A DNA stretch of 64,000 bases from the human T2T-CHM13v2.0 reference genome, Homo sapiens. This document shows, in pieces, positions 6,797-56,574 of the stretch. Both the position numbers and the translations under genes were made by a program. The stretch lies in assembly GCF_009914755.1 (NCBI RefSeq), contig NC_060947.1; one strand, given 5' to 3'. Within the stretch, counting starts at the first letter, position 1; every line of letters starts with the position of its first letter. Below the pieces are notes generated by a model. That model worked only from the letters and a program-made list of their open reading frames with translations, was not told the origin of the DNA and searched no databases.

Positions 6797-7396
6797 GAGA
6801 AGTGCAGTGACAATTATGAGGCCCAAGCAGAGAAGAATCAAGGCCAGTCAGAGGGGAACCAGCATCAATCAGAAGGAAATCCGGACAAATCAGAAGAATC
6901 CCAGGGCCAACCAGAAGAAAATCATCATTCTGAGCGATCCCGAAACCACTTAGAGAGATCTCTTTCTCAGTCAGACAGATCTCAAGGGCAGCTAAAGAGA
7001 CATCATCCCCAATATGAGAGATCTCATGGCCAATACAAGAGATCTCATGGTCAATCTGAGAGATCTCATGGCCACTCAGAGAGATCTCATGGTCACTCAG
7101 AGAGATCTCATGGTCACTCAGAGAGATCTCATGGTCACTCAAAGAGATCTCGTAGCCAGGGAGATCTTGTGGACACTCAGAGTGATCTCATAGCCACTCA
7201 GAGAGATCTCATAGCCACTCAGAAAGATCTCATAGCCACTCAGAGAGATCTCATAGCCACTCAGAGAGATCTCATAGTCACTCAGAGAGATCTCGTGGCC
7301 ACTGAGAGAGATCTCATAAATCAGTCAGGGAGATCTCATGGCCAATCAGAAAGACATCAGAGATACTCAACAGGTAAAAATACAATAACTACTTAA
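6797..7396 (+). CDS. LUZP4: LUZP4 last coding exon: EKCSDNY...(SERSHGH)n...(DLIATQR)n leucine zipper...KNTITT*
   Basis: Acceptor ccttttcAG|GAG; 600 nt to TAA. With exons 2-3 and a 91-nt upstream exon this gives the recalled 313-aa protein. Confidence 0.95.
   Translation, partial: EKCSDNYEAQAEKNQGQSEGNQHQSEGNPDKSEESQGQPEENHHSERSRNHLERSLSQSDRSQGQLKRHHPQYERSHGQYKRSHGQSERSHGHSERSHGHSERSHGHSERSHGHSKRSRSQGDLVDTQSDLIATQRDLIATQKDLIATQRDLIATQRDLIVTQRDLVATERDLINQSGRSHGQSERHQRYSTGKNTITT
6815..7365 (+). repeat. Coding 21-bp minisatellite (consensus GAGAGATCTCATRGYCACTCA), about 26 units, degenerate at the 5' end
   Basis: AGATCT or a variant recurs at 6935, 6956, 6977, 6998, 7019, 7040, 7061, 7082, 7103, 7124, 7145, then 7162-7309 every 21 nt, then 7331. 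Confidence 0.95.
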
Positions 7397-26796: not shown

Positions 26797-27404
26797 TTTA
26801 CAATCCTTCTGAATGCTGCACTAATACTCCCTGATTCAGAACTTGGAACCTAACTACTAAAAAGGGAGCTTGAAGATTCTTGGATATACCTTCTTCATTT
26901 TACAGCTGGTGTTAATGAGACTTACATGAAGTTGAATGGCCCAAAGTTGCTCATCTAATTAGTGGCTGACAAATATATCTTTACTAATTATTATGCTTAA
27001 GTGACACAAATGTGAGATATAGGGTTAAAACTTTACTCCTAAGGACAAAATATACTACAACCAAGAGTTTTCTGCACCAGCCCAGAGGAATATACTTGAA
27101 ATTCAACTTTCAAGCAATGGATAATCACGTGAGTGTAATAGAATTGCACAATAAGCTTGTTCACGTGATATTAAAGAATTCATGTCTGTTTTAGGACTAC
27201 TTGATGTATAAAAAGGTATCTTTTATGTATCAGAAAAAAATGCAGTTAACTAGATTCTACCTGGAGCCCTTAATTCACAAAGAGTCTCTTCCTGTACTGC
27301 ACCTTCATGAAGGATACAAAGGTCAAAGAAATAAGCCAACTTCAATTATTTATTTTTAAAACGAACTTCAAGTTGAACGTGGATTTAGTCCAATATACTA
27401 TATT

Positions 27405-32773: not shown

Positions 32774-33659
32774 TTAAAAAAGATGGAATGGAAAATGGAG
32801 AGGTTGAGGATGAGGACAAATTTCTTCCAGTTACTTCTTCATCTACTGGTGATGCTTGACTGAATCAGCTGTGTGATCTTAGGGAAGTCATTTCCCCTCT
32901 ATAAGCTTGTTTCTTCATCTGGTAAGTGAGGTCTTTAGAAACGATGGCCCTAAAGGTACCTGGAAGCAATATGCATCTCAGCTCCCTACGAAAACCCCCA
33001 AATATTTAAATTCCTCTTTGGATTTTCTGAAAGGGATGGCAAAAGAAGCCTCAGATCAGGTAGAGCCCCATGGTTCTGACTAAATCATTTCTGACAGCTA
33101 GGCAGTTCCACGGCCCCACAGTTCCTCAGAATGCTCCAAAGCCACCAGTTCTGAACTGGGACTGAAGTCTTTAGGAAGCAGCCATACTTAGTGTTGCAGT
33201 TTCCCCATAGCTTAAGGGTACCCAAGGAACATGGCTATGTACCACTCCCATGGCTCCCCGAGGCTTCCATTTAAATGTAAGAACACAGACTGAGGTGGAC
33301 CAAAGTTTAAATCCCACCTCTGCCACTTCCTAGACGTGTATGATCTTAGTTATTTCTAGTTCTCAATCTCCCCATAAATAAAACTGTTGGGAAAATTCAG
33401 TATTCAATAAAGGTGAGTAAGAAGGTAGATAGAGAGGTAGACAGAGAGGTGATAGGATAATATATTTGAGATATTGAATTTTTGCCCTCCAGGAGTTCGC
33501 CCCCTTCCCATTCAAAGTGCTAGTCATTTCAGTACTCATTTTCTCAGTGGTGGCATGTGACTATCATAAGGCATAAACAGTAAGATCTTTCTGACTTAAG
33601 AGGGCAAAATCTTCAGGCAGTGGTGTGCTGGAGCCGGTTCCAACTGGCTCCTTGAGCTA

Positions 33660-36792: not shown

Positions 36793-37370
36793 GTGTGGAA
36801 GATTGTGTTTTCAAATATGGCAGCAACAATATCTCCCATTCTATGTGCTCTTCTACAAGGTGACATTGACACTCACCCCATTTAAGAGGTTGAATCTAAT
36901 TCTGCTCTCTTTGCATCCTAGCAAACCTTGTAAATCACTTAGAACCAATATAGCAGAAGTGATGCTGTGTGACATCTGAGACAAAGTCAGAAAACTTCAT
37001 GAAGCTTCCGCCTAGTTGTCTCTGGACACTTACCCTGAGACCGTCATGCCAGAGACGCTACATTTCGATATTCCAGTCAACAGTTCCAGCTCATCTCAGC
37101 CTTCCAGCCATTTCCATCAAGCCACCAGACATAGGTGTGAAGCTTTGTTTGGACCCTCCAGACCAGCTCATCTATTAGCCACTACTATCAGCCATCCATC
37201 AGTAGGCCACTCCTGAGTGGCCTCAATTGGTGCTAAAACCAACAGAATTGCCCAGGTAAGCCCTGCCCACATTCCTGGTGCCCCAAGTCACAGAATCTAA
37301 TAAAATTCTTGTTTTATCCCATGAAGTTTGGAGGGTGGTTTTTCAATGCAGCAACAGATTACCAGAACAA
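36793..37370 (+). mobile_element. MLT1 (MaLR) LTR
   Basis: TGTGGAAGATTGTGTTTTCAAATATGGC...GCAGCAACAGATTACCAGAACA. Confidence 0.7.
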
Positions 37371-53953: not shown

Positions 53954-56574
53954 ATTTTTGACTAAAGAGGTGGGAGGATGAAAGATGATGCCAAAGTAAG
54001 AGAAGAGGAGTATTTTGGAGAATGGGAAAATACCTGAGAAATTCAGTCTGGGTAGCTGACTGCAGATTCAGGTCCTGGGTTGGGTAGTGGGTGGAAGTGA
54101 AGCATGGGTACAGAAAAGGATTTGGTGAAGGTCAAAGTCAAATTGAGAGTGATCAAGTTGTGGACTAGGAGAGTTAGAAGGATTATTACAGGACCTTAAT
54201 GCCAAGAGAATATGGAAGTATGGAAAGGTTAAGTGACATTTCCAAGGTCATACGGTATTTCTTGGTGGAGCTAGAAATAAAACCAACAGAACTTTGATCC
54301 TTTTACCACAAAATTAAATTCCATTTCCGTGCTTGTTAAATAGCTACATGTTCAGCACTGTGCTACATACTACTGGGAGTGAAAGTTCCATTTATGATAT
54401 TTTGCCATCATGAAGTCCTCCATTTTCCTTCCTTGTAATAAAGATTTCCTGTTGTGAAGGCCAAAATATATGAGCAATACTGCCTAATTTATGCTGGGAT
54501 ATTGGAATTTAAAGATAGCAAGTGAAAGTCTCTGCTTTATAGCAGATTCAAATCAATAGGCGTAACAAACATAATAAAGTCAATCATAAAGAACTAATTT
54601 CTCTCTTTAGAATCAACTTTAATATCCCCTTTCTTGATTCATTTAGGCATCAAGTCATGTAGATTCTAACTTCATAATCTCTCCCAGGCCTGGCCCTGTA
54701 CTCACATCACCTTCATTCTTACCTTAGACTGCATCCTTACCACCTCTCATAGGGATTGTTGCAGCCATCTCTAAAGTGGTATTCCTATATTGATTTTTTA
54801 TCATCCTTCAATCAATGCACACCTATGTCAGATTAATATTCCTAAAGCACCGCTTTGCATTCCTCCATCATAACTCTGTTCAAAATTAATTTAATGTTTA
54901 TTTAATATTTAATGCATTTAATGTTCCCCATTGACCAAGGATAAAGGCCAAATTCTTATGCTGACTTCATGGTCATCTCCTTTGTCATCCTTTGTAGTCA
55001 TCTGTTTATGAACATATCTTATTTCTGACACTGGATTGTACATTTGTAGGGACAGGAACTCTAGCTTCTTGTCTTTCAGTTTCCATACACTAGCACCAAT
55101 TAGACACTTGGTAAATGTTTCTTACTGATGATTGCTTCCTATAATATAATATCAAAATATTTTCATTTAATATTCCATTATCAAATTCACAGAAGACATT
55201 CCTGTATTTGCTAAAGGCTTGTTAGCTATTTGATTTAATCTTTGTAACCACTAATCTTCAGAAAAAATATTTCGTATTATCTATATTTTTACACATATGC
55301 ACACATTCACATGGAGTTAAGTCAAGCTTTGGCAGAGACTGACCTAATTCCTTAATATGTATCCCAAACACCTACACTGTTATGATTTGACTTGCCTCTA
55401 AGTGCTTAAGCTTAAATCTGTCTTATCGCTACTAAATATACAACCCATTCTAGCCAAGTGTACTAATAGAGAAAAAATAACTCTTCCTTCTCTTTGTGCT
55501 TTGTGTTTGTTCTTTGTACTGGTTCCCACAATGGGTATATTCCCAATGGGTCCATAGGCAGTCAACAGGAGTTTTAGCTGAAGGCAAATGATGGATTACA
55601 CACACTAAGAGAAATTCCATACTTATTTTTAATGGGCTGGGAAACAAGATGTTCTGGAAAAATCATTGACTTAACAATCAGAATAACGGGGTTCTAGACT
55701 TGGTTTTACCAGGAATTAGCAGTACGATCTTAGAGTCATGTAAATACTTGTTGTCAATCTATTTCCACATCTGTTGAACATAGGACAATGGTGGTGGATT
55801 TGATTCATTCATTTCACAAATCTTCAGTGGTTGCTGAATACATGATAGGCATGGTGCAGGACACTTTATGGAATAGAAAGGTGACTTGAGTAGAACCCAG
55901 GCATGAGCTTCTGTCCTTGAGGAGCTTATAAGTCTAGAAGGTAGACAATACATACCCAAAGGACTGAAATACAAAGCAGACAGACATGAGAACCATGAAA
56001 GAGGTCCAGAAAAAGTATGTAATGATCTCTCCGATTCCTTCAGCTTAAATATTCTATGGTTTGTCATTAATTTTTCATGAAAAAACTCTTTCCTTCCCAA
56101 AATAGAAGTGCTGTAATAATTTATTAAAGTGCTTTCTTTACTAGCATCACTTCCCGCATCAATGAGAAAGTTAGGGAGATTAAATTGAATGATTTCGACC
56201 ATAATCACAAGGAGATGGAAAAAAGAGCATTTTGCAGAAAGATGTAATACCCATTAACAAGTCAGCAAAAGACAACAACAGGAACTTTTTAAATTACTTT
56301 TTTTAAAAGTACCTGTTTTGTAAAAGAATTTTGAAGACAAAAACCAATCACACGTTACTGAGTCTCTATACTTCTAGCCCTCTTCAAGAGACTGCAGGAG
56401 TTGGAAACAAAGCTTAACATATGGTGCCTCTCCTCTTTCTGATTAGCATGTAGGTAGGAAGATCAGACTAAATATAGAGAGGATGATTTTAAACCAGTTT
56501 GGTATAAAATTGCATAGTGCAAATTATGGTATCATAAGAGATAAGAGAAGAGAAACATTGCAATGGAGGAACGA

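What the first reader, a model, noticed from the sequence alone, without database searches (positions are those of the whole stretch)
6935..7365. LUZP4's RS/His domain and leucine zipper are the same 21-bp repeat read in two frames
Seen: the unit GAGAGATCTCATRGYCACTCA reads GAG AGA TCT CAT GGT CAC TCA = ERSHGHS in the first block and AGA GAT CTC ATA GCC ACT CAG = RDLIATQ in the second. AGATCT spacing is exactly 21 nt except 17 nt at 7145 to 7162 (-4, enters the zipper frame) and 22 nt at 7309 to 7331 (+1, net -3, returns to GRSHGQSER). Eight units (7162-7309) give eight leucines exactly 7 residues apart. In the RS frame this block now has two TGA stops (7183, 7303). Inference: the zipper arose de novo by compensated frameshift of an RS-His minisatellite, whose 7-codon period supplies coiled-coil heptad spacing for free. 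LUZP4's domains are known, but I am not aware that this shared origin has been described.
Basis: partly seen in the sequence, partly recalled or inferred. Interest (0 to 1): 0.8.

Follow-up and report, generated by a model that had tools for sequence, protein, structure and literature searches.

The report
LUZP4 repeat read in two frames
The helical "leucine zipper" of the human mRNA-export protein LUZP4 is encoded by the same 21-base repeat as its disordered arginine-serine-histidine region, read one base out of step, so a frameshift inside a repeat created a new protein segment.

Summary
LUZP4 exon 4 carries a roughly 20-unit, 21-bp coding minisatellite. Six units read E-R-S-H-G-H-S. A 4-nt deletion at about 7159 moves translation to the +1 frame. 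There seven units read R-D-L-I-A-T-Q, with Leu in 8 of 8 heptads. A 1-nt insertion in the unit at 7307-7328 restores the first frame. The two consensus units share 19 of 21 bases in register.

Of 26 orthologue proteins, 14 keep the RS/His frame throughout, including an anteater and a tenrec, so that frame is ancestral. Ten of those 14 match the stop-interrupted RS frame of the human zipper block. Dolphins and a badger also use the +1 frame. Whether that reflects one old shift or several is open without orthologous DNA.

AlphaFold2 predicts disorder for the RS/His block and a confident helix for the zipper block. It predicts the same helix for the unused +1 frame of the RS block. Dimerisation is not shown.

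Nine full-text searches found no description of this origin; Tureci 2002 was not readable. I file it as a new member of a known kind: a compensated frameshift in a repetitive coding sequence.

The parts
6954..7016 (+). Three degenerate 5' units of the 21-bp array, read in the RS frame (ERSLSQS, DRSQGQL, KRHHPQY)
   Evidence: the period-63 TRF row starts at 6946
7017..7142 (+). RS/His block: six 21-bp units read as [EK]RSHG[HQ][SY]. The +1 frame of the same DNA is open and reads RDLM[AV][TN]Q
   Evidence: AlphaFold2 gives no secondary structure and pLDDT about 50 in the used frame. The +1 frame folds as a helix at pLDDT 96.9
7143..7159 (+). Entry: a 17-nt unit lacking 4 nt, which moves translation to the +1 frame. 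It is still read as RSRSQ but already has the zipper-type bases (TAGCC)
   Evidence: 17-nt spacing; unit table; single 4-nt gap
7160..7306 (+). Zipper block: seven full 21-bp units read in the +1 frame as x-D-L-[IV]-[AVD]-T-[QE]
   Evidence: helix at pLDDT 89-99. It matches RS-only orthologues in the other frame
7183..7185 (+). TGA stop in the abandoned RS frame
7303..7305 (+). Second TGA stop in the abandoned RS frame
7307..7328 (+). Exit: a 22-nt unit (RDLINQS) with 1 extra nt that returns translation to the RS frame. It holds the eighth Leu
   Evidence: 22-nt spacing; single 1-nt insertion
7329..7370 (+). Last two units, back in the RS frame (GRSHGQS, ERHQRYS)
   Evidence: This end is shared with RS-only orthologues, which have ...GQS.RY.RYS
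7371..7396 (+). Human-specific tail and stop. Translation runs past a donor-like AG|GTAAAA (GT at 7374-7375) into what is intron in other mammals, giving TGKNTITT and a stop
   Evidence: Orthologues continue as RYSP-V... into further exons

Best explanation
LUZP4 exon 4 is a coding minisatellite of 21-bp (seven-codon) units.

In the ancestral frame each unit encodes E-R-S-H-G-[HQ]-S. This is a disordered, basic, RS- and His-rich segment that holds the nuclear localisation activity.

In the human lineage a 4-nt deletion inside one unit (about 7156-7160) shifted everything downstream to the +1 frame. There the same unit encodes R-D-L-[MI]-[VA]-T-Q. A 1-nt insertion eight units later (7317-7325) restored the original frame for the last two units.

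The consensus unit has no stop codon in any sense frame, so the shift produced an open frame whatever the copy number. Because the period is seven codons, the new peptide has Leu every seventh residue and is predicted to form one long helix.

The shifted block then diverged slightly as a block: ATGGTC became ATAGCC, which changes Met-Val to Ile-Ala. The abandoned frame picked up two TGA stops.

What is shown and what is inferred:
- Shown here: the repeat, the two indels, the two frames, that the RS frame is ancestral, and the predicted disorder-to-helix change.
- From print: residues 241-313, which hold the shifted block, bind Nxf1 and RNA.
- Inferred: the order of the two indels, selection on the new frame, and self-association of the helix.
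For: establish the array, the 17-nt and 22-nt units, the frames and the two TGA stops.

consensus units share 19 of 21 bases in register. Mean between-block identity is 0.83 (42 pairs), against 0.88 and 0.86 within the blocks.

14 of 26 orthologue proteins have 0 zipper-type residues. They include Tamandua, Echinops, three hystricognath rodents, three ruminants, a horse and a bat.

- 10 of those 14 give tblastn matches to human frame 3 over 7162-7317. Fukomys is the best, at 67% over 52 residues, E 1.5e-21.
- In the other direction, the +1-frame blocks of P0021, Eulemur, P0003 and Meles match human frame 2 over the RS block (E 1.4e-15 to 3e-6).

the RS consensus is stop-free in all three sense frames.

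residues 1-120 of the exon-4 peptide have no secondary structure, at pLDDT 47-55. Residues 121-180 form a helix at pLDDT 89-99; the unused +1 frame of the RS block folds as a helix at pLDDT 96.9.

PMC4344508 (section 15 and passages):
- Deleting residues 156-236 sends the protein to the cytoplasm.
- Nxf1 binds the C-terminal domain strongly.
- Losing residues 241-313 prevents association with the mRNP.
- The zipper region is the second RNA-binding region.

PMC13216328 (passage): the peptide 264-313 is listed among the LUZP4 peptides in the paper's seminoma panel table. This indicates that the shifted frame is made in vivo.
Against: No orthologous DNA could be read. The ancestral state and the indels in other species are inferred from predicted proteins.

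Four of the 14 RS-only orthologues gave no frame-3 match: Galemys, Rousettus, Heterocephalus and Chinchilla.

Differences among the human units gave no clear sign of purifying selection in either frame. In the zipper block they were 1 synonymous and 10 non-synonymous in the zipper frame, against 2 synonymous, 7 non-synonymous and 2 stops in the RS frame.

The heptad is not a classical a/d pattern, since Thr and Gln lie 3 and 4 positions after Leu. Pfam finds no bZIP or any other family in the exon-4 peptide. So 'zipper' may be a name only, and the block may work as an RNA- or Nxf1-binding helix.
Confidence: 0.9

Rival explanations
1. History A, recurrent shifts: the array moved into the +1 frame independently in at least three lineages (the human line, dolphins, arctoid carnivores). 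Each time this was possible because the +1 frame is open and helix-forming.
For: On the mammal tree as I recall it, three gains explain the models not flagged low quality, against one gain plus about six losses.

By eye, the zipper units of each lineage are the +1 reading of that lineage's own RS variants:
- dolphin ERSRGQA and RDLVAKQ
- carnivore ESS.. and RVLVAS.
- P0027 GRSPVPS and GDLLSRQ
- human ..GHS and ..[AV]TQ

Entry junctions also differ. Six RS residues precede x-D-L in human and dolphins, seven in P0021 and the lemurs, and the junction is mid-unit in Meles, Phoca and Condylura.
Against: Human and the two dolphins share the entry type, and Lipotes also has eight units like human. 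Human, the two dolphins and the low-quality Microcebus model share an exit of the form R-D-[LF]-I-x-Q-S-x-R-S-H, placed two units before the RY.RYS end. That is unlikely for independent events.

Entry types that differ by exactly 3 nt could be one event plus a codon indel.

Lineage-specific units could also come from DNA-level homogenisation between the two blocks.
Confidence: 0.45
2. History B, one old shift: the -4/+1 pair arose once before the primate-laurasiatherian split. The shifted block was then lost several times. A single unequal crossover between RS units on either side would remove both indels together.
For: Human and dolphins share entry type and exit position, and human and Lipotes share the unit count. 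Minisatellites are prone to unequal exchange (established knowledge). Copy numbers vary widely among species, from about 7 to about 27 RS units.
Against: It needs about six independent losses: hystricognath rodents, the Microcebus X2 model, Galemys, Rousettus, Equus and ruminants. The zipper units in each species also resemble that species' own RS units, which then requires ongoing exchange across a frame boundary.
Confidence: 0.4
3. The +1-frame blocks outside human are annotation artefacts. Predictions guided by the human protein, or projected from the human gene, would impose the human frame pattern on RS-only genomes. The shift would then be confined to the human or anthropoid line.
For: Of the 12 +1-frame orthologues, 4 are flagged 'LOW QUALITY PROTEIN', 4 are unnamed and 1 is a partial submitter model.

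Microcebus has both an RS-only model and a low-quality +1-frame model. The two are identical outside the repeat block. The pairs P0003/Equus and P0006/P0013 are near-identical up to the shift point.
Against: Sagmatias, Lipotes and Meles are not flagged low quality. As I recall NCBI practice, such models translate the assembly unchanged. Their +1-frame units are lineage-specific, not human-like.
Confidence: 0.1
4. Reversed direction: the leucine heptad frame is ancestral and the RS/His frame is derived.
For: The consensus unit is open in both frames, so openness alone does not give a direction.
Against: In 25 of the 26 orthologues the array begins in the RS frame; the partial fin-whale model is the exception. 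14 of 26 never leave that frame, including both non-boreoeutherian species. The human RS frame flanks the zipper block on both sides.
Confidence: 0.03

Closest known systems
Pairs of compensatory frameshifting mutations (Biba et al. 2022, PMC8935012; abstract and passages read)
   Same: Two indels whose lengths are not multiples of 3 but sum to a multiple of 3 leave a stretch of protein read in a new frame inside an otherwise conserved gene.
   Different: That screen kept only indels of 1-2 nt and found spans under 100 nt. Its high-confidence human genes are RAB36, ARHGAP6 and NCR3LG1. LUZP4 has a 4-nt deletion and a span of about 160-170 nt. It lies in a repeat, and the new segment is a named, experimentally mapped domain. 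The paper's supplementary gene lists could not be opened, so LUZP4 may be in its low-confidence set.
In-silico frameshifted tandem repeats (Osmanli et al. 2025, PMC12871928; abstract and passages read)
   Same: They report that shifting the frame of tandem-repeat regions can turn predicted disorder into confident alpha-helical coiled-coil or collagen models.
   Different: Their shifted sequences are hypothetical translations of reference proteins. LUZP4 is not in the main text (0 occurrences). Here both frames are used within one natural protein, and the shifted part has mapped functions.
Ohno's 1984 proposal that internally repetitious, stop-free coding sequences yield new proteins from an alternative frame (recalled; only papers citing it appeared in the listing)
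   Same: A periodic coding sequence without stops in the other frames gives a long open frame after a frameshift.
   Different: In LUZP4 only an internal block is shifted and the frame is restored, so the old and new peptides coexist in one chain.
MUC1 repeat read in an alternate frame (MUC1-ARF, PMC5074479; search listing and start of abstract only)
   Same: In the MUC1-ARF case, MUC1 mRNA yields a different protein when translated in another reading frame.
   Different: MUC1-ARF comes from alternative initiation on the same mRNA, not from fixed genomic indels within the repeat.
Classical leucine zippers of bZIP proteins
   Same: Leu every seventh residue over eight heptads, in a predicted continuous helix.
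   Different: There is no Pfam bZIP match and no adjoining basic DNA-binding region. The positions 3 and 4 residues after Leu are Thr and Gln, not hydrophobic. The main text of PMC4344508 contains none of the words dimer, oligomer or coiled.
RS domains of SR-type proteins and export adaptors (Alyref, Uif)
   Same: A disordered, repeated Arg-Ser segment in a nuclear-speckle mRNA-export adaptor that has a Uap56-binding motif (PMC4344508).
   Different: The RS dipeptides sit in a strict seven-residue His-rich unit encoded by a minisatellite. No RRM or other Pfam domain is found in the exon-4 peptide.

Membership tests
Compensated frameshift pair within a coding sequence | Two indels, each not a multiple of 3, whose sum is a multiple of 3 | tested here: met
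   -4 at the entry and +1 at the exit, net -3
Compensated frameshift pair within a coding sequence | The stretch between the indels is homologous to sequence read in the other frame in relatives | tested here: met
   10 of 14 RS-only orthologues match human frame 3 over 7162-7317, E 1e-12 to 1e-21; 4 of 14 gave no such match
Compensated frameshift pair within a coding sequence | Both indels can be placed on a branch of the species tree | not testable with these tools
   No mammalian DNA other than the human assembly was available
Coding minisatellite | Head-to-tail array of 10-100-bp units inside an exon | tested here: met
   Period 21, 16.2 copies, 82% matches; 13 unit matches against 0.01 expected
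Coding minisatellite | Copy number varies between individuals | not tested
   Only one human assembly was held. Copy number does differ between species
Leucine zipper / bZIP | Leu at every seventh position over at least four heptads in a helix | tested here: met
   Leu in 8 of 8 heptads; helix at pLDDT 89-99
Leucine zipper / bZIP | Match to a bZIP profile with an adjoining basic region | tested here: not met
   0 Pfam families at E <= 0.01 for the exon-4 peptide
Leucine zipper / bZIP | A second hydrophobic core position 3 or 4 residues from Leu | tested here: not met
   Thr in 7 of 8 heptads at +3 and Gln in 6 of 8 at +4. The hydrophobic Ile/Val lies directly next to Leu
Leucine zipper / bZIP | Parallel dimer formation | not testable with these tools
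   It needs biophysics. The words dimer, oligomer and coiled do not occur in the main text of PMC4344508
RS domain | Repeated Arg-Ser dipeptides in a disordered region needed for nuclear localisation | tested here: met
   RS in every unit; no structure at pLDDT about 50; deleting 156-236 gives a cytoplasmic protein (PMC4344508)
FYTT / UIF family (PF07078) | C-terminal FYTT motif | tested here: not met
   The human exon-4 peptide has no match, and none of the 19 genome matches lies on the X chromosome. The full-length Microcebus orthologue does match, at 23.6 bits against a cut-off of 21

The most novel reading that the evidence does not exclude
The LUZP4 minisatellite acts as a frame-toggling module. 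Because its seven-codon unit is open in every sense frame, mammalian lineages have repeatedly and independently moved blocks of it from a disordered RS/His reading into a helical Leu-heptad reading, and sometimes back. The two blocks keep exchanging sequence at the DNA level, so one repeat evolves under two codes at once. In humans the shifted block became the Nxf1- and RNA-binding end of the protein after the ancestral C-terminal exons were dropped.
Probability: 0.4. Interest if true: 0.8.

Novelty: new member of a known kind. Interest (0 to 1): 0.6.

Why it matters
Clear natural cases in which a frameshift creates a working protein segment are few. A systematic vertebrate screen kept five genes, all with spans under 100 nt (PMC8935012).

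LUZP4 offers a larger and cleaner case:
- The old and new readings sit side by side in one protein.
- The DNA relationship is obvious, at 19 of 21 bases.
- The change is from predicted disorder to a predicted helix.
- The new part has mapped activities: Nxf1 binding, RNA binding and association with the mRNP.

The case makes two ideas directly testable. One is that stop-free repetitive coding DNA is a reservoir of ready-made alternative peptides. The other is that a seven-codon period gives helical periodicity at no cost.

It also affects practice:
- Protein alignments of LUZP4 orthologues are misleading across this block.
- Homology-guided gene models may import the wrong frame.
- The LUZP4 peptide table in the seminoma serology study includes fragments covering both the RS/His region and the shifted block.

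Tried and rejected
It returned 'no answer', so nothing is concluded about self-association.

2. Synonymous and non-synonymous counts among the human units in each frame. The numbers are small and each base was treated on its own, so the result is uninformative.

3. A codon-compatibility computation was not run. It would have asked whether the RS peptide of one species and the +1 peptide of a close relative can be encoded by one DNA, for four species pairs. That claim therefore rests on tblastn against the human DNA, on BLASTP of three pairs and on reading codons by hand.

4. Paralogues: the 431-bp region hits only itself in the human assembly.

5. Search of 1.84 billion representative proteins: 463 hits at E <= 1e-3. 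Most match only residues 118-180, that is, unrelated heptad-repeat proteins. The library has no names, so it gave no help with the phylogeny.

6. Solved structures: the best match is a designed antiparallel coiled coil at E 0.0019. I treat this as low-complexity resemblance.

7. The Pfam FYTT search of the human genome found no relic on the X chromosome.

8. Literature:
- Searches run: LUZP4 (144 papers, 30 listed), LUZP4 + frameshift (13), HOM-TES-85 (18), LUZP4 + tandem repeat (6), 'leucine zipper protein 4' + evolution (18), and four general searches. None describes the shared origin.
- Tureci et al. 2002 is not held.

9. No anthropoid primate orthologue appeared in any protein search. The shift therefore could not be dated within primates.

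10. Rejected readings:
- Chance similarity.
- Artefact in the human sequence. The frame is the curated RefSeq coding sequence, was studied as a protein (PMC4344508), and its peptide 264-313 is listed in the seminoma panel table of PMC13216328.

Full report
**What is in the sequence**

Window 6946-7370 is a head-to-tail array of 21-bp units inside LUZP4 exon 4. Tandem Repeats Finder gives period 21 with 16.2 copies and 82% matches, and also periods 42 and 63 over the same stretch. Shuffles give 0.01 expected.

AGATCT anchors lie 21 nt apart, with two exceptions: 17 nt (7145 to 7162) and 22 nt (7309 to 7331). Two further units have a degenerate anchor, which produces two 42-nt gaps. Alignment to consensus units needs one 4-nt gap at the entry and one 1-nt insertion at the exit. 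The region hits only itself in the human assembly.

**The two readings**

The annotated frame reads six units of E-R-S-H-G-[HQ]-S. After the 17-nt unit it reads GDLVDTQ, SDLIATQ, RDLIATQ, KDLIATQ, RDLIATQ, RDLIVTQ, RDLVATE and RDLINQS. It then returns to GRSHGQS and ERHQRYS.
- Leu is present in 8 of 8 heptads and Asp in 8 of 8.
- Continued into the zipper block, the RS frame reads ERSHSHS units broken by TGA at 7183 and 7303.
- The +1 frame of the RS block is open and reads RDLM[AV]TQ.

The two consensus units share 19 of 21 bases in register. No other register exceeds 0.48 identity, random 21-mers of the window reach at most 0.67, and only 0.043% of the possible codings of RDLIATQ are as close.

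**Direction of the change**

Three protein searches returned 26 LUZP4 orthologues and one spurious MotB hit (sequences). A motif count finds no +1-frame heptads in 14 of the 26. These 14 are:
- Tamandua and Echinops
- Fukomys, Heterocephalus and Chinchilla
- Moschus, Odocoileus and Bos mutus
- Equus przewalskii, Rousettus and Galemys
- Microcebus isoform X2
- two unnamed proteins

Ten of these 14 match the human zipper block in its RS frame (frame 3, 7162-7317). The best is Fukomys, at 67% over 52 residues, E 1.5e-21. Four gave no such match. In the other direction, the +1-frame blocks of four other orthologues match the +1 frame of the human RS block. Because both non-boreoeutherian species are RS-only, and 25 of the 26 arrays start in the RS frame, the RS/His reading is ancestral and the zipper is derived.

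**Other mammals with the shifted frame**

Twelve of the 26 orthologues carry runs of 14-49 residues in the +1 frame.
- Three are named models not flagged low quality: the dolphins Lipotes and Sagmatias, and the badger Meles.
- Four are flagged LOW QUALITY: a second Microcebus model, Eulemur, Phoca and Condylura.
- Four are unnamed.
- One is a partial fin-whale model that reads almost the whole exon in the +1 frame.

As I recall NCBI practice, low-quality models carry frame corrections guided by homologues, and some unnamed entries may be projections of the human gene. These could import the human frame pattern. The two Microcebus models are identical outside the repeat block. P0003 and P0006 are near-identical to RS-only relatives up to the shift point. 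I therefore rest only on the dolphins and the badger.

**One origin or several**

By eye, human and both dolphins share an entry of six RS residues followed by x-D-L. They also share an exit of the form R-D-[LF]-I-x-Q-S-x-R-S-H, placed two units before the RY.RYS end. Human and Lipotes both have eight units. This argues for one old event.

Two things argue the other way. On the tree as I recall it, parsimony favours three gains over one gain plus about six losses. And each lineage's shifted units are the +1 reading of its own RS variants, which suggests either recent independent shifts or continuing exchange between the blocks. Loss would be easy, because one unequal crossover between flanking RS units removes both indels. 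I cannot decide without orthologous DNA: about 0.45 for recurrent shifts, 0.40 for a single origin, and 0.10 for artefact outside human.

**Consequence for the protein**

AlphaFold2 was run on the single sequence of the exon-4 peptide.
- It gives no secondary structure and pLDDT 47-55 for residues 1-120, which include the RS/His block.
- It gives one helix over residues 121-191, with pLDDT 89-99 across the zipper block.
- The unused +1 translation of the RS block (42 residues) is also a helix, at pLDDT 96.9.
- The RS consensus unit has no stop in any sense frame.

So the helix was latent in the repeat before any shift. Single-sequence predictions of amphipathic heptads are easy wins for the method, so this is supporting evidence, not proof.

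The heptad is atypical. Ile or Val sits directly next to Leu, and Thr and Gln lie 3 and 4 residues after it. No bZIP or other Pfam family matches. The nearest solved sequence is a designed coiled coil at E 0.0019.

**What print says about function**

In Viphakone et al. 2015 (PMC4344508; section 15 and passages):
- The RS-H region (residues 156-236) is needed for nuclear localisation.
- Nxf1 binds the C-terminal domain strongly.
- Loss of residues 241-313 prevents association with the mRNP.
- The zipper region is the second RNA-binding region.
- The authors mention 'repetitive DNA motifs' that limited primer design. They say nothing about reading frames, and the words dimer, oligomer and coiled do not occur.

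A 2026 serology paper lists peptide 264-313 among the LUZP4 peptides in its seminoma panel table (PMC13216328, passage).

**Comparison with what is known**

The kind of event is known:
- Pairs of compensatory frameshifts (PMC8935012). That screen considered only 1-2-nt indels and spans under 100 nt, and named RAB36, ARHGAP6 and NCR3LG1 in humans.
- In-silico frameshifted tandem repeats that become coiled coils (PMC12871928; LUZP4 is absent from the main text).
- Ohno's alternative-frame idea for repetitious coding DNA (recalled).

I found no description of the LUZP4 case in nine full-text searches.

**Verdict**

- The shared origin and the RS-to-zipper direction are supported, at confidence 0.9.
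- The date and number of origins are open, and a true zipper function is unproven.
- It is a new, unusually clear member of a known kind. Interest 0.6.

Noticed in passing
window 27000-27131 (+): An unannotated relic of an ancestral LUZP4 downstream exon. It is an open stretch matched by 15 or more orthologues (Phoca 58% identity, E 1.2e-10). An AG precedes it and a GTGAGT donor follows at 27129. The human protein stops in exon 4 and lacks this part.
   Followed up: partly
window 7367-7396 (+): The human coding sequence runs past a donor-like AG|GTAAAA (GT at 7374-7375) and ends eight codons later. Orthologues splice here and continue for about 100-150 more residues. Human LUZP4 is therefore truncated at the C-terminus compared with lemur, rodent, horse, deer and anteater.
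   Followed up: partly
P0011 residues 403-438 (Microcebus orthologue); human genome: The C-terminus of full-length LUZP4 orthologues matches Pfam FYTT (forty-two-three / UIF) at E 3.9e-5, above the cut-off. This ties LUZP4 to the UIF export-adaptor family. The human genome shows FYTT matches on contigs 1, 3, 9 and 17 only, none on the X.
   Followed up: partly
window 7143-7159 (+): The truncated entry unit is still read in the RS frame but already carries the zipper-type bases (..GTAGCC..), not the RS-type ATGGTC. The boundary between unit types therefore lies one unit upstream of the frame boundary.
   Followed up: no
They may be ORF calls over a 21-bp satellite. Their origin is unknown.
   Followed up: no
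window 33043-33159, 37031-37180, 56137-56235 (+): The odd C-terminal extensions of three orthologue models (P0007, Eulemur, Sagmatias) match these intergenic or lncRNA stretches at 55-72% identity. They are probably gene-model run-ons into conserved or repeat sequence.
   Followed up: no
window 7017-7142 (+): The third sense frame of the RS consensus (EISWSLR) is also stop-free. In the zipper-type unit the G-to-A change creates a TAG in that frame.
   Followed up: no
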